A stretch of 43,688 bases of DNA from a virus (lineage: Duplodnaviria; Heunggongvirae; Uroviricota; Caudoviricetes). The stretch lies in the IMG/VR virus record IMGVR_UViG_2526164631_000038, one strand, 5' to 3'. Shown here in pieces: positions 9,261 to 43,278 of this stretch. The first letter of the stretch is position 1. The number at the start of each line of letters is the position of its first letter. A model generated the notes under the pieces. It was not told where the DNA came from, made no database searches, and saw nothing but the letters and a program-made list of their open reading frames with translations. Position numbers and translations under genes: made by a program.

Positions 9261-9847
9261 TAGCCGCCCCCCAGTAATGACGCCACGTTACCCGTGATGC
9301 TTTTCAGCAGTGAAGTATCTGGAGGCTTGGTGGTTTTGTTGCCGCTGTTCTGTACCGCCGACGTGCTGGCCCCTTCCTTCATGTTGGTTTTATCCGCGAC
9401 GGAAATCTGCTGTGTCCGGGAGATAAGGACCTCCCTCAGGGTGAGGACGGCGGACAGGACGTTTTCGGTTGTCTTGTCCGTCGTCACTTCCAGCGCCCGG
9501 ATCAACATGTTGCTGTACAGTCGTTTACCGGTTACCACATCGAAGGGGATACGGCTTTCCTGCAGATCCAGTAGCTCCTGATACGTCTGCTGAGGACTCA
9601 GGCCGAGCAGGCTGGTAGCCGTCAGGTTACTGGCAAAATCCAGCAATGCGCCACCACCGGCGAAACCAACCTCCATCACCACTTCTGACGGTTTTTTATA
9701 GGCATGATCAGCGACAGCGGCCCCGACCTCTACCGGATGCTCTGTTATTTCAAGCATATCTGTATGCTTCTCTGAAATAACAACACAGGGAACAATCATT
9801 CCTATTTTTCTGCTCTGCTGATGAAAAAGTGTAGAGAGAATATCCAC
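9260..9847 (-). CDS. tail protein (DNA-circulation-like position)
   Basis: 195-aa ORF immediately downstream of the tape measure; first codon at 9847 is GTG, so the true start may be an internal ATG. Confidence 0.45.
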   Translation of the reverse strand: MDILSTLFHQQSRKIGMIVPCVVISEKHTDMLEITEHPVEVGAAVADHAYKKPSEVVMEVGFAGGGALLDFASNLTATSLLGLSPQQTYQELLDLQESRIPFDVVTGKRLYSNMLIRALEVTTDKTTENVLSAVLTLREVLISRTQQISVADKTNMKEGASTSAVQNSGNKTTKPPDTSLLKSITGNVASLLGGG

Positions 9848-11835
9848 TAACCCACCCTCACCTGATTACTTCGCATGACCTGAGCATTTGCAGACTGTTG
9901 CCGACGTGCAACCTCATTACCGACAGCGTGCGGATCTCCACCACCGTAAATGTGGTAGGTATTTTGCTGGTTAACCTCTGTCACTTTGCCACTAATTCCC
10001 GCCACGGCAGCCTTATTAATCAGCTCCCGAGAATAGATATTTCTTCCATTCTCATGCTGGATAATGCTGCTCATCAATGCTGACATGGTTTGCGGATCGC
10101 TCATATTCAGGGCAGCCCGGGGATCCACTCCCAGTCGTTGCGATACAGCCCTGATATACGCAGTTGTGTTGTTATTATCAGACGCAGGTGCCCAGGTAGA
10201 GATAATTTTCTCCACACTGTTTATTCCCCGTCCGGCGTACAGCATTAACTGACGAGCAAGAGCCCGTAATCCATCAAAAGCAGTTTCAAATCTGGCAAAT
10301 CGCCCGCCCGGGCGTTCAAGAGAAGCCCCTGCCTGACCAGCAAAATTAAGGTTTCCCGGATTGTTATTCCGTTCTCCTCGTTTCGTAGCCTGTGCATGTT
10401 GTTCCGGCTCATCATCACCAAACCAGCCGCGTACCGTCCGGCCCACACTGCGGGGATCGAATCCCCAGTGCTCTTTAATCCAGTCGGCAGTACTGTTAGC
10501 GCTGTCTGTAACCATCGGCATCGCTGACGGATTTTCGCTGCCCTGATTAAGTATCTGTTTGCCGATGCTGACGGCATCAGCCCAGCGGCCATCTTTGATA
10601 GCGTTGAGCAGGTCGGCGATCATGTTCAGCATTTTGCTGAATTCGCCCATCTGGTCGATGAAGTTGCTGAAATCCCACTTCAGGGACCATGATTTGGGGT
10701 CAATATTGAGCAGTTTCGCCAGCGCTTTCACCAGGTCGTTAACGGTCGTTTTAAGGTCACGAACCATCTTCAGCGCGGCATCGACCTCCGGTTTCCACTT
10801 GCCCCAGTCAATCAGGCTGTCGCCGCCTTCCTTCCAGGTCTGATAGTCCTCCCACAGGAGGGCAATACCCGCCGCCAGCGCGGTAATGAGGCCAATCGGC
10901 GACATCCAGAACGTACTGTTCAGAATGCGCAGCGCAATCGTCAGTGCGCCAAACAGCGAGATCAACTCCCGCGTTTGCTTATCCAGCGATTGCCACCAGG
11001 TGATAAGGCCTGATGTCCCCTCAATCAGTCTGAAGAACAGCCGCCCGATAATATCCCCGAGCGCCAGAATGCCTTTTATGGCTTTCGTCAGGGTCTGCTC
11101 GATACGAGGGAAGTTGTCCAGGATATGGCGGCGCAGGGTGTCCAGCGAACCCGCAAGCCCCCCCGCAAGATTAGAGCCGATTTTGTCACGGGCCATGCCT
11201 GCCATCGCGCCAAACTCACGCAGGGAGGTCATAAATTTGTTGGAGCTTCTGGCCGCCTCGTCAGCATTGAAGCCGATAGCTTTCGCCATTGCGCTGTACT
11301 GCCCGGAGAAGCCACCCACACCCCGGCGCATCGCCATAAGGGTATTTTCGTCAATGCCCAGCATCTGCGCATACTGGTTAGCCCGGTAATACGGCATGCT
11401 GCTGAGTTTCTGTCCAACGCCCGTAAAAATAGCGGCCATGTCACGCATGTTACCGCTGGCATCACGGGTCTGTACGCCCAGGCGATTCAGAAAGCCTTCT
11501 GCACCGGGATTGTTACGAATAAACCGGGATAGGCTTTCCAGAGAAGATCGCGCAGCGTCCACGCTGCCGCCAACCTGCGAAACCGCATAGCCAATAGACT
11601 GAATTCCCTGGACTGTCGCGCCGGTGCGCTGTGACGCCCAGTAAAGATTATCCAGGCCGGAGGCGATCTTAGCCGTGAAGGCCACCACGGACAACGCAGC
11701 TCCTTCAACAGCCAGCCCCATTTTGATGACATTTGCAGTTGTACCGGCGAGGACAGAACCGAACTTTTTCGCTCCTGCATCATCCACACTGAAGCCAAGC
11801 GAGACGAGGAAATCTTTAATAGTTTCAGCGTTCAT
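9847..11835 (-). CDS. tail tape measure protein
   Basis: 663 aa from MNAETIKDF (GAGAGAGGATA Shine-Dalgarno); Ala/Gly-rich helical body with hydrophobic segments; downstream of the tail chaperone. C-terminal segment contains NNPGNL. Confidence 0.8.
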   Translation of the reverse strand: MNAETIKDFLVSLGFSVDDAGAKKFGSVLAGTTANVIKMGLAVEGAALSVVAFTAKIASGLDNLYWASQRTGATVQGIQSIGYAVSQVGGSVDAARSSLESLSRFIRNNPGAEGFLNRLGVQTRDASGNMRDMAAIFTGVGQKLSSMPYYRANQYAQMLGIDENTLMAMRRGVGGFSGQYSAMAKAIGFNADEAARSSNKFMTSLREFGAMAGMARDKIGSNLAGGLAGSLDTLRRHILDNFPRIEQTLTKAIKGILALGDIIGRLFFRLIEGTSGLITWWQSLDKQTRELISLFGALTIALRILNSTFWMSPIGLITALAAGIALLWEDYQTWKEGGDSLIDWGKWKPEVDAALKMVRDLKTTVNDLVKALAKLLNIDPKSWSLKWDFSNFIDQMGEFSKMLNMIADLLNAIKDGRWADAVSIGKQILNQGSENPSAMPMVTDSANSTADWIKEHWGFDPRSVGRTVRGWFGDDEPEQHAQATKRGERNNNPGNLNFAGQAGASLERPGGRFARFETAFDGLRALARQLMLYAGRGINSVEKIISTWAPASDNNNTTAYIRAVSQRLGVDPRAALNMSDPQTMSALMSSIIQHENGRNIYSRELINKAAVAGISGKVTEVNQQNTYHIYGGGDPHAVGNEVARRQQSANAQVMRSNQVRVG

Positions 11836-12465
11836 TATCCTCTCTCCATTTCTCAATGCGTCGCTGGTTATCCGCTTTTACCGCCAGATGGTCATTCAAG
11901 AGAGCAATGTCATACAAATCGACAGAGCCATCTTTAAGTGCTGTATAAGGAATTAACCCGGCGTCAACCGGATTGAGAAGGTAGGACAGCCCGTCCGGCA
12001 GGCTGTTAAACGTCAGCCCTGTTGCAGGCTCTGCGTCGTGCTGGTAAGGGGTGTAGGCAAAAAATTTCCCAGCGAATCGGCGACCACCCGCGCCACCAGC
12101 TGCAGCATGACCAGCAAGTCAATATCATCAAACATCAGTTCGCCCTGGGTAAATACCGGCACCCATCCGTCCATATGACGCCGCGATACCACCGCAAGAC
12201 AGGGATGAATAATCGCATCGGTGTCATCTTCGGTCAGGGAAGACAGTTCCTCAGCGATACGCGGGAGCATGGTTTCAAACACCGGTTTTAACTGTTCGAA
12301 TTTCACGGTGTCGATTTTGCCGTCAGCAGGCAAACGGGAGCGAATACTCCCGAAATCTGACATCATTCCTGCCAGCACCGGCAGAAGTTTGCGGGTCACT
12401 TTCAGCTGGTCAAAAACGCTGAGTTTTGCCGTGCGATATTTCACGCCTTTAATTTCGAATTCCAT
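11825..12465 (-). CDS. tail assembly chaperone, predicted -1 frameshift fusion product (G-T-like)
   Basis: Slippery run GGGAAATTTTTTG near the chaperone 3' end (plus strand AAAAAATTTCCC at 12059..12070). The -1 frame stays open for about 70 codons and ends at a TGA overlapping the tape measure ATG. Confidence 0.5.
12013..12465 (-). CDS. tail assembly chaperone (lambda G-like short product)
   Basis: 150-aa acidic ORF between the tube and tape measure genes. Confidence 0.65.
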   Translation of the reverse strand: MEFEIKGVKYRTAKLSVFDQLKVTRKLLPVLAGMMSDFGSIRSRLPADGKIDTVKFEQLKPVFETMLPRIAEELSSLTEDDTDAIIHPCLAVVSRRHMDGWVPVFTQGELMFDDIDLLVMLQLVARVVADSLGNFLPTPLTSTTQSLQQG

Positions 12466-12468
12466 GCA

Positions 12469-12909
12469 TTAAAACTCCCCGAGAACCTGGTCAATCTTGC
12501 CGCAGTCAAACACCCACGGCATCGTATTACCGGTTTTAGCGTTGGCGTTATCCGGTTGTTTCTGGAACGCAACACTGCGTGCCGTGATGATGTCGCCGCT
12601 GACCTTGTTGCGGATCACGATAACGTTATTCCCCCATGTGGCAGAAGACTGGCTCTGTGCGTTATACGCCAGCGACAATTTTTTATTTGTCGGTGATGTC
12701 TTCAGAAGGTTAACGGTAATCGTCCCGCTTTTATCTGCATGGAGACTGTGCATCACTTCGCCATCAGCACCGATGGTCATGGTGTTTTTAGGACCGCCCA
12801 TCGCAACCACAATCCCCTCTTCAGAACTTGCCGAACCGTACCCGAGGTCAATCGAACCTGTCGGCCCGGTCAGCGTCGCAGTGACATCCATAAAAGAATA
12901 GGTAGACAT
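12469..12909 (-). CDS. tail tube protein
   Basis: 146-aa ORF directly downstream of the sheath gene; size and position of Mu-like tube proteins. Confidence 0.65.
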   Translation of the reverse strand: MSTYSFMDVTATLTGPTGSIDLGYGSASSEEGIVVAMGGPKNTMTIGADGEVMHSLHADKSGTITVNLLKTSPTNKKLSLAYNAQSQSSATWGNNVIVIRNKVSGDIITARSVAFQKQPDNANAKTGNTMPWVFDCGKIDQVLGEF

Positions 12910-12919
12910 TCACTTCCCC

Positions 12920-14065
12920 TTAGCGAACAACGTTAATCTGTACGTCAGCGTAATGAACCGCGCCTGCAAGTTTTATTGCAGCCTGAATCACCGGAGCCTT
13001 ACGGGCTTCACGTTCTGATTGAGCCTGTTCATCCAGCGGCTGAGCGTATACGTAATAACCTTTGGGCAGTGTGTCACCTGATGACAACTGACCAAGGTCG
13101 CCCCCGTTCCATACGCCCGGAGCAATCAGTCCATTCTGAACGGCCTGATCCAGTGATTTTTCAACATTTGATAACAGTCGGGTAATACCGGCTTCAGTCT
13201 GGGGAACTTTCGTGGTGCTGGTATAAAGCAGGTTATAGAGGTTGGTCTGCACATAATTCTGTAACCAGTCCAGGCCGTGGCGTTCATCAAAGAAATCGCC
13301 GTTAGCCATCACTCCCTGCTGGAGGATAGCCGTATCATTCTGGTAGTACACGAATACATTGCAGTTTTTTGCATCAAGTGCCGATGCCTGGCTGACTGTC
13401 AGTGTTTCATACCCGATACCCGGCTCCTGCTTAAACTTGAGCGTAATCGCGGTATTACTGCCATTGAAATTAACCGTGAATGCCCGGCCAAATGCAGATA
13501 ACGCAGCGTATTTATTACCCGATGAATACTGAATAAAACTGCGTGAATATCCGGCGGTTTTCAGTTTTGATGCCAAATCATCGCTGGATGCAGTCTGCAG
13601 GCATTTCTCATCGCTTGTCGTAATCGCCAGAATACGGCTTACAGAAGAGGATTCGATCGCCGCAGCCACTTTCAGCCAGTCTGCATCCTGAATATCTTCA
13701 TCGTCTGCAATCCCCAGCCCATACCATGAAGTATAATCAAGCATGGCATTCACAGCCTGCTCCAGCGTCTCAGGCGTGGCCTGTTCGCTGTCTCCCTTCG
13801 TTTTCACCCAACGACCAACAAAAACCTCCTGAGGTTTCGGTGATTGAGAGAAAAACACCTGCGCAGCCTTATATTCTGGTGATTCCACGCCAAAATCTTT
13901 TCCAATATCTTCCGCGGCAGAATAACGGCGAATGCGCTCACTTACCGGAATGATTGTGGACGGGCCGAGAATGAGTAATGCACCAAAATTTCGCCCTGAT
14001 GCTGCACGCGGCGACATGATCACATCAACATTAACAACGTTTGATACAGGCAAGCCCTGTGCCAT
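12920..14065 (-). CDS. tail sheath protein
   Basis: 381-aa ORF preceding the tube gene, in contractile-tail gene order. Confidence 0.65.
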
Positions 14066-27905: not shown

Positions 27906-28061
27906 TTACTTCTCAGATTCGTAGTCCACGAAGACAGCAACCTCCGTCTGGCCGGTTCGGATTCGTACCTCGCAGAGGTCTTTCCTCGTTACCAGTGCCG
28001 TCACTATGACGGTTAAACAGATGACGATAAGGGCGATTAACATCGCCTTTTGCTGCTTCAT
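27906..28061 (-). CDS. hok: Hok/Gef-family membrane toxin
   Basis: 51 aa MKQQKAMLIALIVICLTVIVTALVTRKDLCEVRIRTGQTEVAVFVDYESEK, nearly identical to HokD/RelF as recalled. Confidence 0.85.
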   Translation of the reverse strand: MKQQKAMLIALIVICLTVIVTALVTRKDLCEVRIRTGQTEVAVFVDYESEK

Positions 28062-28618
28062 AGCCTGCTTCTCCTTGCCTTTCGGCACGTAAGAGGCTAA
28101 CCTACATTTGTGAGACATAGATTGGGCCTCAGATTAATGTTAAGCGTCTTGTAGGACGCGTAATGTTAACTGGGGCTTTTCTCTATCTGCCTTTTGGTGT
28201 TCATGCCTGAGGCAGATAGCCTCAAGCACCCGCAGCAATTCTAACTATCCAATAGATCAATGCCAACTTCTTTTCCTGCAACATCTCTCATCATAAGTGA
28301 CCAAAATTCATCCAATCAGCACAAAAGAAACATTTAAAGCGTGAATGCTACCGAACGTTCATTTCAATTACATCGTTTTGATTTTTAACAGTTTTTACCT
28401 CAACAAATCAAATGGCATTAGCATTCATCATGGAAGAAAGACTGATAAAAATGATCATTTTCAATGACTTATGATCACACCGGGTATTGCCAAGTCATTC
28501 CTTTTACGCCAGGATACCCACAAGTGAGTAGTCGAGGAGAGTTTGCCAATTTTTGCGATATAAATTTCAATGTCCGAAGAACCATTAATTGTTAATTGAT
28601 TCTGTATAAGGTATTAAC

Positions 28619-35642: not shown

Positions 35643-36037
35643 CGGAATACCTTATTACTGGTTGTGTGAGAACTCCAGTATACCACCGAGCCTGAAGTGG
35701 TAAAAAGACAGGCGCACAACACGAAGGCGCATTTCCGGTATTCATAAAGAGTCGGTCTTGTCTGTTAAATTTAAATGGTGGGAGTGCGCCTCCGGTTGTA
35801 AATAACGACATTGCTATGTGTAGTCTTTGGCGGCATCAGTTCTACTCCGTGGCTGCCCTGTCGCCCCTTTTTAAAGTGAATTTTGTGATGCGGTGAATGC
35901 GGCTAAGCGCACGCGGCACAGTTAAAAGCATCAGTGTTATGGGTGGATTATCCGGCGTTAATTGTTAACTGGTTAACGTCACCTGGAGGCACCAGGCACC
36001 GCATCGACAAAATTCATTTGTAAAAATGGAGATAATT

Positions 36038-41149: not shown

Positions 41150-41344
41150 ATGCGGTATGAAAAAGTCAAACCATGTCCGTTTTGTGGTTGTCCATCAGTA
41201 ACGGTGAAAGCCATTTCAGGATATTACCGCGCAAAGTGTAACGGATGCGAATCCCGAACCGGCTATAGTGGAAGTGAAAAAGAAGCACTCGAAAGATGGA
41301 ATAAACGAACTACTGGAAATAATAATGGAGGTGTTCATGTATAA
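41150..41344 (+). CDS. lar: Lar-family restriction alleviation protein
   Basis: 64 aa from MRYEKVKPCPFCGCP...CNGCESR, a zinc-ribbon of the Lar/RalR type; Rac-like position. Confidence 0.65.
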   Translation: MRYEKVKPCPFCGCPSVTVKAISGYYRAKCNGCESRTGYSGSEKEALERWNKRTTGNNNGGVHV

Positions 41345-41525
41345 AATTACTGCCACTATTGAAAAGGAAGGTGGCACTCCTACTAACTGGACAAGATATT
41401 CAAAATCTAAATTAACGAAATCAGAATGCGAAAAAATGCTCTCAGGGAAAAAAGAAGCAGGCGTTTCCAGAGAGCAGAAAGTAAAGCTGATAAATTTTAA
41501 TTGCGAGAAACTTCTGTCCTCGTGA
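41337..41525 (+). CDS. small hypothetical protein (62 aa)
   Basis: ATG preceded by GGAGG; between lar and xis. Confidence 0.4.
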   Translation: MYKITATIEKEGGTPTNWTRYSKSKLTKSECEKMLSGKKEAGVSREQKVKLINFNCEKLLSS

Positions 41526-43075: not shown

Positions 43076-43086
43076 TAAATACAATT

Positions 43087-43188
43087 AAAAAAGACCGAAT
43101 ACGATTCCTGTATTCGGTCCAGGGAAATGGCTCTTGGGAGAGAGCCGTGCGCTAAAAGTTGGCATTAATGCAGGCTTAGTTGCCTTGC
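43087..43188 (-). ncRNA. sdsR: SdsR (RyeB) small RNA
   Basis: Minus-strand sequence GCAAGGCAACTAAGCCTGCATTAATGCCAACTTTTAGCGCACGGCTCTCTCCCAAGAGCCATTTCCCTGGACCGAATACAGGAATCGTATTCGGTCTTTTTT matches SdsR as recalled, including the terminator hairpin; CTATTCT -10 just upstream. Confidence 0.85.
43093..43117. repeat. attR: right copy of the attachment-site repeat, forming the present 3' end of sdsR
   Basis: GACCGAATACGATTCCTGTATTCG matches the attL copy at 1075..1098 with two mismatches. Confidence 0.75.
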
Positions 43189-43278
43189 CCTTTAAGAATA
43201 GATGACGACGCCAGGTTTTCCAGTTTGCGTGCAAAATGGTCAATAAAAAGCGTGGTGGTCATCAGCTGAAATGTTAAA

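What the first reader, a model, noticed from the sequence alone, without database searches (positions are those of the whole stretch)
11825..12465. Probable programmed -1 ribosomal frameshift in the tail assembly chaperone
Seen: the slippery run GGGAAATTTTTTG (heptamers G-GGA-AAT and T-TTT-TTG) lies near the chaperone 3' end; the -1 frame stays open for about 70 codons and stops at a TGA overlapping the tape measure ATG. Established: lambda G/GT and most long-tailed phages use this conserved frameshift.
Basis: partly seen in the sequence, partly recalled or inferred. Interest (0 to 1): 0.45.

Follow-up and report, generated by a model that had tools for sequence, protein, structure and literature searches.

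The report
Tail chaperone -1 frameshift site
This E. coli prophage very probably uses the textbook -1 ribosomal frameshift that long-tailed phages use to make a short and a long tail-assembly chaperone from one start codon; it is real but ordinary, and public annotations of identical sequences miss it.

Summary
All features lie on the minus strand. The chaperone gene (12465..12013, 150 aa, Pfam Phage_TAC_15) sits between the sheath/tube genes and the tape measure gene. It contains GGGAAATTTTTTG at 12070..12058, read as CTG GGA AAT TTT TTG. That gives three nested in-frame slippery heptamers: G_GGA_AAT, A_AAT_TTT and T_TTT_TTG. The -1 frame is open from 12118 to a TGA at 11827..11825, which is 77 codons after the slip site. 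Its C-terminal half matches Pfam DUF6889 (E 1e-20). The predicted fusion protein is 213 aa.

Across 68 distinct homologous genes:
- Asn-Phe-Leu (AAT TTT TTG) are the only conserved degenerate codons with zero synonymous variation.
- T_TTT_TTN is kept in 67 of 68.
- Just after the slip site the -1 frame is more conserved as protein (61%) than the 0 frame (36%).
- The -1 ORF has no conserved start codon.

No stimulatory RNA structure was found. Phage P2 E/E+E' also shifts at TTTTTTG without one. A homologous frameshift product is already annotated in Klebsiella phage Mulock. RefSeq instead calls a CTG-start 'DUF6889 family protein' on identical sequence. Which heptamer is used, and how efficiently, remains untested. 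Low interest.

The parts
12013..12465 (-). Chaperone gene ('G'-like), 150 aa, 0-frame product; stop TGA at 12015..12013
   Evidence: ORF, translation. Pfam Phage_TAC_15 E 4.9e-31 (108 bits, cutoff 22) and phrog_1688 'tail assembly chaperone' E 3.6e-65. The AlphaFold model (pLDDT 66.8) best matches predicted viral proteins named tail assembly chaperone, E 1.9e-9, TM 0.72.
12058..12070 (-). Slippery block GGGAAATTTTTTG = CT[G GGA AAT TTT TTG]. Three nested in-frame heptamers: G_GGA_AAT (12070..12064), A_AAT_TTT (12067..12061), T_TTT_TTG (12064..12058)
   Evidence: Single match, 0 in shuffles. Phase confirmed. Exact 13-mer present in 139 of the 155 loci fetched, including all 80 close viral contigs. 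Codons AAT/TTT/TTG have zero synonymous variation in 67 distinct homologues.
12016..12118 (-). Productive stretch: both the 0 and -1 frames are open here (34 codons), so a -1 shift anywhere in it would reach the T part
   Evidence: Frame analysis and translation.
11825..12058 (-). 'T' part read in the -1 frame: 77 codons from GCC (12058..12056, re-reading the G at 12058) plus stop TGA at 11827..11825
   Evidence: Translation. Conserved as protein from its first codons (consensus ARTPRQRD; 61% mean pairwise identity against 36% in the 0 frame). No ATG/GTG/TTG before T codon 48.
11834..11950 (-). DUF6889 domain match within the T part (T residues 37-75)
   Evidence: Pfam PF21829 E 1.3e-20, 73.3 bits against cutoff 23.9; phrog_4364 E 2.2e-23.
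11825..12465 (-). Predicted frameshift fusion ('GT'-like), 213 aa: 136 residues from the 0 frame plus 77 from the -1 frame
   Evidence: Inference. A fused 213-aa ORF of the same length with junction ...LGNFFAYTPYQ (98% identical to the chaperone over its N-terminal part) exists in some public assemblies (P0003, Pfam PF21822+PF21829).
9847..11835 (-). Tape measure gene; ATG at 11835..11833 preceded by GGAGAGAGG; overlaps the T part by 11 nt
   Evidence: phrog_2276 'tail length tape measure protein' E 9e-284. The start agrees with annotations in vB_EcoM-606R2, YP3 and SEN34.
12469..12909 (-). Tail tube gene (context), directly upstream of the chaperone gene
   Evidence: Pfam KPP10_Orf10 (annotated as DUF3277 in homologous public records) E 8.8e-61.
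12920..14065 (-). Tail sheath gene (context); shows the tail is contractile
   Evidence: Pfam DUF3383 E 1e-100; phrog_205 'tail sheath' E 1.4e-135.

Best explanation
[quoted passage not shown] Most ribosomes read 12465..12013 and make the 150-aa chaperone. A minority slip back one base within GGGAAATTTTTTG (12070..12058), continue in the -1 frame to TGA 11827..11825, and make a 213-aa fusion carrying a DUF6889 'T' domain. By analogy with lambda gpG/gpGT and P2 gpE/gpE+E' (inference, not tested here), the shared N-terminal part would coat the tape measure protein. The T domain would recruit the tube protein, and the fixed low ratio of long to short product would be needed for correct tail assembly. 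The most likely main shift site is T_TTT_TTG, with tRNA-Phe in the P site and tRNA-Leu in the A site, giving junction ...GNFL|AYTP. A_AAT_TTT and/or G_GGA_AAT may contribute, giving junction ...GNFF|AYTP. No RNA stimulator appears to be involved.
For: Shown from sequence:
- Gene order sheath-tube-chaperone-tape measure.
- Three in-phase heptamers 15 codons before the stop, and an open -1 frame of 77 codons ending 11 nt inside the tape measure gene.
- The -1 ORF encodes a curated protein family, DUF6889 (E 1.3e-20).
Shown by comparison with 68 distinct homologues at about 46-86% protein identity from phages and enterobacterial genomes:
- Of 59 conserved degenerate codon columns (mean codon entropy 1.22 bits), only N134 AAT, F135 TTT and L136 TTG have zero entropy. 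Gly133 is GGA in 93%.
- T_TTT_TTN is present in 67/68, A_AAT_TTT in 62/68 and G_GGA_AAT in 59/68. The one sequence without the T run (L154, AAT ATT TTG) keeps G_GGA_AAT.
- In the 12 codons after the slip site, mean pairwise protein identity is 0.61 in the -1 frame, 0.36 in the 0 frame and 0.34 in the +1 frame.
- The T ORF length (60-65 codons past the chaperone stop) and its overlap with the tape measure start are conserved.
- In the window the T ORF has no ATG/GTG/TTG before codon 48, which lies inside the domain. No start position is conserved among homologues.
Precedent:
- Klebsiella phage Mulock annotates the homologous pair as 'tape measure chaperone' and 'frameshift product'.
- P2 E/E+E' shifts -1 at TTTTTTG without a downstream structure (PMC3091744).
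- Lambda G/GT mechanism and role are reviewed in PMC5009743.
Against: No protein or ribosome data exist for this family, so the frameshift is inferred. In E. coli reporter assays each of the three heptamers is a weak shifter on its own. Without a stimulator the values are G_GGA_AAU 0.069%, A_AAU_UUU 0.070% and U_UUU_UUG 0.118%, against a background of about 0.04-0.07% (Sharma et al. 2014, text and Table S3). I found no stimulator: folding of the 99 nt downstream gives z = +0.2, the alignment consensus structure is -0.38 kcal/mol with no covariation, and there is no conserved Shine-Dalgarno-like element upstream. The efficiency could therefore be very low, and which heptamer is used is unresolved. 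The Pfam scan of the chaperone and T part returned only Phage_TAC_15 and DUF6889, no other chaperone family, so the functional roles of the two domains rest on analogy only.
Confidence: 0.9

Rival explanations
1. The DUF6889 ORF is an independent small gene with its own translation start (or is made by termination-reinitiation at the chaperone stop), and no frameshift is involved.
For: Several public annotations treat it this way. RefSeq/PGAP calls a 54-aa 'DUF6889 family protein' on identical E. coli sequence. Phages GZ7, ST11-VIM1phi8.3 and yong1, and a Pantoea contig, carry separate small CDSs.
Against: The PGAP CDS starts at a CTG (window 11989..11987), which is a non-canonical start codon. 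In the window there is no ATG/GTG/TTG in this frame before T codon 48, which would remove the N-terminal part of the DUF6889 match. In many homologues the first candidate start lies inside the domain (T codon 54 or 60), no start position is shared across the homologue set, and few candidates have any Shine-Dalgarno-like match. Protein conservation in the -1 frame begins right at the slip site (ARTPRQRD), 15 codons before the chaperone stop and 23 codons before the PGAP start. Independent initiation cannot explain this, nor the frozen synonymous sites of AAT TTT TTG.
Confidence: 0.03
2. The long product arises by transcriptional slippage: RNA polymerase adds one extra U in the T6 run, and ordinary translation of the edited mRNA gives ...GNFFAYTP....
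For: The most conserved element is a homopolymer, T6 in 67/68 and T7 in a few. A T7 version of the gene encoding the fused 213-aa protein is found in some assemblies (P0003), so the run is prone to polymerase errors of some kind. Transcriptional slippage is an established alternative in other systems (PMC5009743).
Against: From my own knowledge, efficient slippage by E. coli RNA polymerase generally needs runs of about 8-9 or more, and six is short. The one homologue that breaks the T run (L154, AAT ATT TTG) keeps the ribosomal heptamer G_GGA_AAT and an intact T ORF. That fits ribosomal but not transcriptional slippage. Synonymous freezing extends to AAT and GGA outside the run. The P2 site with the same TTTTTTG is described as translational (PMC3091744).
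Confidence: 0.05
3. There is no recoding: the slippery run and the open -1 frame are chance or relics, or the frame change is a sequencing error or pseudogene.
For: In-frame heptamers are not rare (about 4.5 per 1000 codons), and the three motifs are intrinsically weak.
Against: The same arrangement occurs in 368 of 5426 complete E. coli genomes, in 80 viral contigs and in species-level representatives of many enterobacterial genera. The -1 ORF matches a curated family and is under stronger protein constraint than the overlapping 0 frame. The +1 frame closes a few bases after the chaperone stop.
Confidence: 0.02

Closest known systems
Phage P2 gpE / gpE+E' (-1 frameshift in the FETUD tail operon)
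   Same: Contractile-tail phage. The chaperone pair lies between the tube and tape measure genes. It uses a -1 shift at the same heptamer, TTTTTTG in phase T_TTT_TTG. No downstream stimulatory structure is reported (PMC3091744) and none was found here. The products are of similar scale (P2: 91 and 142 aa).
   Different: The Pfam scan returned only Phage_TAC_15 and DUF6889, with no other chaperone family. Here the T run is embedded in two further in-phase heptamers. The sheath and tube belong to the DUF3383 / KPP10_Orf10 (DUF3277) lineage, not the P2 FI/FII lineage. The P2 frameshift is experimentally demonstrated (as cited in PMC3091744), whereas this one is not.
Phage lambda gpG / gpGT
   Same: [quoted passage not shown] The 5' heptamer here, G_GGA_AAT, differs from lambda's G_GGA_AAG (recalled from my own knowledge) only in the last base.
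   Different: Lambda is a siphovirus. From Sharma et al. Table S3, G_GGA_AAG is a strong shifter (0.277% alone, 43% with a pseudoknot) and G_GGA_AAU is weak (0.069% alone, 1.05% with a pseudoknot). G_GGA_AAT is lost in 9 of 68 homologues here, so it is not the core element. No sequence homology was tested or seen.
Klebsiella phage Mulock CPT_Mulock_014/015 (GenBank MN098327)
   Same: A true homologue with about 68% nucleotide identity across the locus. It has the same 13-nt slippery block, the same gene order and the same 62-codon extension past the stop. It is annotated as 'tape measure chaperone' plus a joined 'frameshift product'.
   Different: This is annotation only; the genome announcement does not mention the frameshift. 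The exact join position in that record could not be read with these tools.

Membership tests
Conserved -1 frameshift of tail assembly chaperones (lambda G/GT type; Xu, Hendrix & Duda 2004) | Two overlapping ORFs located between the major tail/tube gene and the tape measure gene | tested here: met
   Order is sheath 14065..12920, tube 12909..12469, chaperone 12465..12013, T ORF to 11825, tape measure from 11835.
Conserved -1 frameshift of tail assembly chaperones (lambda G/GT type; Xu, Hendrix & Duda 2004) | The downstream ORF is in the -1 frame and lacks its own credible start | tested here: met
   The -1 frame is open from 12118 to 11825. No ATG/GTG/TTG before T codon 48 and no conserved start among 68 homologues.
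Conserved -1 frameshift of tail assembly chaperones (lambda G/GT type; Xu, Hendrix & Duda 2004) | In-phase X_XXY_YYZ slippery heptamer inside the overlap, conserved among relatives beyond what the protein sequence requires | tested here: met
   Three nested heptamers. Zero codon entropy only at AAT/TTT/TTG among 59 conserved degenerate columns. T_TTT_TTN present in 67/68.
Conserved -1 frameshift of tail assembly chaperones (lambda G/GT type; Xu, Hendrix & Duda 2004) | Both the short and the fused long protein are made at a fixed ratio, both are needed for tail assembly, and neither is in the virion | not testable with these tools
   Needs western blot or mass spectrometry and genetics.
P2 E/E+E' subtype (myovirus, TTTTTTG, no RNA stimulator) | Shift heptamer TTTTTTG in phase, in a contractile-tail gene cluster, without a downstream structure | tested here: met
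   T_TTT_TTG at 12064..12058. Sheath gene present. Fold z = +0.2 and consensus structure -0.38 kcal/mol with no covariation. P2 description in PMC3091744.
P2 E/E+E' subtype (myovirus, TTTTTTG, no RNA stimulator) | Sequence homology to P2 gpE / E' | tested here: not met
   The Pfam scan at E<=0.01 returns only Phage_TAC_15 and DUF6889. The locus works like P2 E/E+E' but is not a detectable sequence relative.
Pfam Phage_TAC_15 (PF21822) | Score above the curated gathering threshold over most of the model | tested here: met
   108.3 bits against cutoff 22; residues 6-138 match model positions 1-122 of 127.
Pfam DUF6889 (PF21829) | Score above the curated gathering threshold | tested here: met
   73.3 bits against cutoff 23.9; model positions 2-40 of 40, in the -1 frame translation.
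Tail assembly chaperone fold (solved structures) | Structural similarity of the chaperone domain to an experimentally solved chaperone | tested here: inconclusive
   Model pLDDT is 66.8. No PDB match better than E 3.5 and no PDB sequence match. Predicted viral structures named tail assembly chaperone do match: E 1.9e-9, TM 0.72.

The most novel reading that the evidence does not exclude
The 13-nt block may work as a composite shift site. Two or three nested, individually weak heptamers would each contribute, without any RNA stimulator, giving two fusion isoforms (Leu136 or Phe136 at the junction). Redundancy would buffer the chaperone ratio against mutation: 9 of 68 homologues have lost G_GGA_AAT and one has lost the T run, but none has lost both. 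Alternatively, an unrecognised stimulator (nascent peptide, codon or tRNA context) raises the efficiency of motifs that reporter assays rate near background.
Probability: 0.25. Interest if true: 0.35.

Novelty: new member of a known kind. Interest (0 to 1): 0.15.

Why it matters
The main value is for annotation. The locus is in 368 of 5426 complete E. coli genomes. RefSeq splits it into a chaperone and a CTG-start 'DUF6889 family protein' on identical sequence, and the nearly identical phage record inspected (vB_EcoM-606R2) calls the genes hypothetical with no CDS for the T ORF. Recognising the frameshift gives the correct 213-aa product. It also assigns a probable role to a Pfam 'domain of unknown function': DUF6889 would be the frameshift-encoded T domain of Phage_TAC_15 chaperones. 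In addition, this is a natural case in which motifs that score close to background in E. coli reporters are nevertheless strongly conserved without a detectable stimulator. It does not change understanding of the mechanism.

Tried and rejected
1. Downstream stimulatory RNA. Single-sequence folds of 99 nt and 211 nt gave z = +0.2 and -0.9. RNAalifold on 24 diverse homologues gave -0.38 kcal/mol with no covariation. A local hairpin at about 12006..11986 starts 52 nt after the slip site, too far to act as a stimulator, and it is not conserved as a structure. Rejected.
2. Upstream Shine-Dalgarno-like stimulator. The 18 nt upstream (CGGGTGGTCGCCGATTCG) vary among homologues with no consistent SD-like core at a fixed distance. 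Inconclusive and not claimed.
3. +1 frameshift. The +1 frame closes a few bases after the chaperone stop. Rejected.
4. Structure of the fusion. A single-sequence AlphaFold run on the natural fused variant P0003 gave pLDDT 39.5 and is unusable.
5. PDB relatives. None by sequence or by fold.
6. NCBIfam. No model hits the chaperone or the T part.
7. The Mulock genome paper does not mention the frameshift. The P2 primary paper (PMC135442) is not held.
8. The first viral-contig scan returned only near-identical relatives (94-100% protein identity), which were uninformative for conservation tests. The genome-contig scan with an alignment supplied the needed diversity.
Full report
**What is there.** All relevant genes are on the minus strand. 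Their order is as follows:
- tail sheath, 14065..12920 (Pfam DUF3383, phrog 'tail sheath')
- tail tube, 12909..12469 (Pfam KPP10_Orf10; annotated as DUF3277 in homologous public records)
- a 150-aa ORF, 12465..12013 (Pfam Phage_TAC_15 E 4.9e-31; phrog_1688 'tail assembly chaperone')
- the tape measure gene, starting at ATG 11835 (phrog_2276 E 9e-284)

The window is an E. coli prophage. Its locus is 99.9% identical to Escherichia phage vB_EcoM-606R2 and is related to Yersinia phage YP3, Salmonella phage SEN34 (Brunovirus) and Klebsiella phage Mulock.

**Checking the observation.** GGGAAATTTTTTG occurs once, at 12070..12058 on the minus strand, and in none of 100 shuffles. In the chaperone frame it reads CTG GGA AAT TTT TTG (Leu132 to Leu136). 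This yields three nested heptamers in the canonical X_XXY_YYZ phase: G_GGA_AAT, A_AAT_TTT and T_TTT_TTG.

The -1 frame is open from 12118 and stops at TGA 11827..11825. That is 77 codons after the slip site, 62 of them beyond the chaperone stop. The stop lies in ATGAACGCTGA, so the extension overlaps the tape measure gene by 11 nt rather than overlapping the ATG itself.

By chance alone about 0.15 in-phase heptamers would be expected in the 34-codon productive stretch. The single sequence is therefore suggestive but not decisive.

**Evidence that the -1 ORF is coding and is reached from the slip site.** Its translation matches Pfam DUF6889 (E 1.3e-20, above threshold) and phrog_4364. I collected 68 distinct homologous chaperone genes, sharing 46-86% protein identity with the window. 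They came from phage records, one-genome-per-species bacterial contigs and one Pantoea contig. Findings:
- In every intact locus the -1 ORF runs 60-65 codons past the chaperone stop and ends just inside the tape measure gene.
- The T-part proteins align from their very first residues (consensus ARTPRQRD...SLPDGEDYL..PVDAGYI.Y.ALKDGSVDLADIA.MNDWL..KADN.ARI.RWR).
- In the 12 codons just after the slip site, where both frames are open, mean pairwise protein identity is 0.61 in the -1 frame, 0.36 in the 0 frame and 0.34 in the +1 frame. Selection therefore acts on the -1 reading from the slip site onward.
- In the window the -1 ORF has no ATG, GTG or TTG before its 48th codon, which lies inside the domain. 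Among homologues no start position is conserved, and in many the first candidate start lies inside the domain, at T codon 54 or 60.

**Evidence that the slip site itself is selected.** I built a codon alignment of 67 distinct genes. Its 59 columns with a conserved, degenerate amino acid have a mean codon entropy of 1.22 bits. Only three columns have zero entropy: Asn134 AAT, Phe135 TTT and Leu136 TTG. Gly133 is GGA in 93%.

Variants are informative:
- T_TTT_TTN is present in 67 of 68, including lineages where Asn is replaced (GGC GGT TTT TTG, GGC AGT TTT TTG, GGT GAT TTT TTG).
- A_AAT_TTT is present in 62 of 68 and G_GGA_AAT in 59 of 68.
- The single sequence that breaks the T run (Pantoea cypripedii, AAT ATT TTG) keeps G_GGA_AAT.
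- The exact 13-mer is present in 139 of the 155 loci fetched, including all 80 near-identical viral contigs.
- The locus is found in 368 of 5426 complete E. coli genomes.

**Mechanism.** The best-supported reading is a -1 programmed ribosomal frameshift giving a 150-aa and a 213-aa product from one start. The universally conserved heptamer is the same TTTTTTG used by phage P2 for E/E+E', where no downstream structure is found either (PMC3091744). I found none here:
- The 99 nt downstream fold no better than shuffles (z = +0.2).
- A 24-sequence consensus fold is essentially unstructured (-0.38 kcal/mol, no covariation).
- The upstream 18 nt show no conserved Shine-Dalgarno-like element.

There is one caveat. 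In E. coli reporters all three heptamers are weak without stimulators: 0.069%, 0.070% and 0.118% for G_GGA_AAU, A_AAU_UUU and U_UUU_UUG (Sharma et al. 2014 Table S3), against a background of about 0.04-0.07%. A_AAU_UUU responds best to a pseudoknot (11.4%). The efficiency and the heptamer actually used therefore cannot be predicted.

The junction residue would tell them apart. Leu136 would be retained after a shift at T_TTT_TTG. Phe136 would appear after a shift at either upstream heptamer or after transcriptional insertion of a U.

The functional roles are inferred from lambda (PMC5009743) and were not tested. In that model the shared part binds the tape measure protein and the T domain recruits the tube protein.

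**Rivals.**
- Independent initiation of the DUF6889 ORF is what several annotations imply. RefSeq/PGAP calls a 54-aa 'DUF6889 family protein' on identical sequence, but its start is a CTG at window 11989. This model explains neither the conservation upstream of that point nor the frozen synonymous sites.
- Transcriptional slippage on T6 cannot be excluded computationally. It is disfavoured by the short run, by conservation of the flanking AAT and GGA codons, and by the Pantoea variant.
- Pseudogene or sequencing error is excluded by the breadth of conservation.

A naturally or artefactually fused 213-aa ORF occurs in some assemblies (P0003, junction LGNFFAYTP, equivalent to T7). It shows what the fusion looks like.

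**Comparison with what is known.** The locus works like P2 E/E+E' and lambda G/GT. It is a member, above curated thresholds, of Pfam Phage_TAC_15 and DUF6889. It is not a detectable sequence relative of P2 gpE.

The AlphaFold model of the chaperone domain is of moderate quality (pLDDT 66.8). It has no PDB neighbour. It does match predicted viral proteins named tail assembly chaperone (E 1.9e-9, TM 0.72).

The homologous frameshift product is already annotated in Klebsiella phage Mulock, although its genome paper does not discuss it. It is not annotated in the other annotated phage records inspected or in the RefSeq E. coli record inspected.

**Verdict.** The kind of system is well known. The useful by-products are an annotation correction for a common E. 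coli prophage and a probable function for DUF6889. Interest is low.

Noticed in passing
window 11825-11989 (-); L155 1092-1256: RefSeq/PGAP annotates a separate 54-aa 'DUF6889 family protein' on sequence identical to the window. Its start maps to a CTG codon at 11989..11987. This is probably an artefact of fitting a CDS to the family model where the real product is a frameshift fusion.
   Followed up: yes
protein P0003 (Logan assemblies; no locus fetched): A single 213-aa ORF carrying both Phage_TAC_15 and DUF6889, with junction ...LGNFFAYTP. This is equivalent to a T7 instead of a T6 run (16 member sequences). It could be a homopolymer assembly error or a real fused mutant.
   Followed up: partly
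L138 (Izhakiella australiensis), T ORF from about 1563: The -1 ORF diverges after ...DGSVDLAD and runs on for 256 codons into unrelated sequence. This looks like a deletion or rearrangement that removed the end of the T part and the start of the tape measure gene, suggesting a decaying prophage.
   Followed up: no
L099 (Apirhabdus apintestini) 1201-1651: The chaperone gene is interrupted (47-aa ORF), yet the 13-nt slippery block is still present downstream. Probably a pseudogenised prophage copy.
   Followed up: no
window 9847-11835 (-): The tape measure protein is short (662 aa). Its C-terminal third (about residues 450-650) matches phage transglycosylase/endolysin-type families (phrog_873, phrog_7182). 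Homologues are annotated as lytic transglycosylase / SLT domain proteins. It is therefore a tape measure with a built-in peptidoglycan hydrolase.
   Followed up: partly
window 28056-28231 (-), 35815-35866 (+), 41343-41521 (-), 43083-43226 (both strands): Rfam gathering-level hits to sok antitoxin RNA, DicF, RalA (antitoxin of RalR) and the SraC/RyeA-SdsR/RyeB pair. The prophage has a lambdoid-type early/accessory region with small-RNA toxin-antitoxin modules. The right end of the window probably reaches the chromosomal ryeA/ryeB locus. No tRNA genes were found in the window.
   Followed up: no
protein P0069 (Logan contig; no locus fetched): A 212-aa ORF whose N-terminus carries Pfam PF06163 and whose C-terminus is the last ~120 residues of this chaperone family. 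It is a chimeric or rearranged copy.
   Followed up: no
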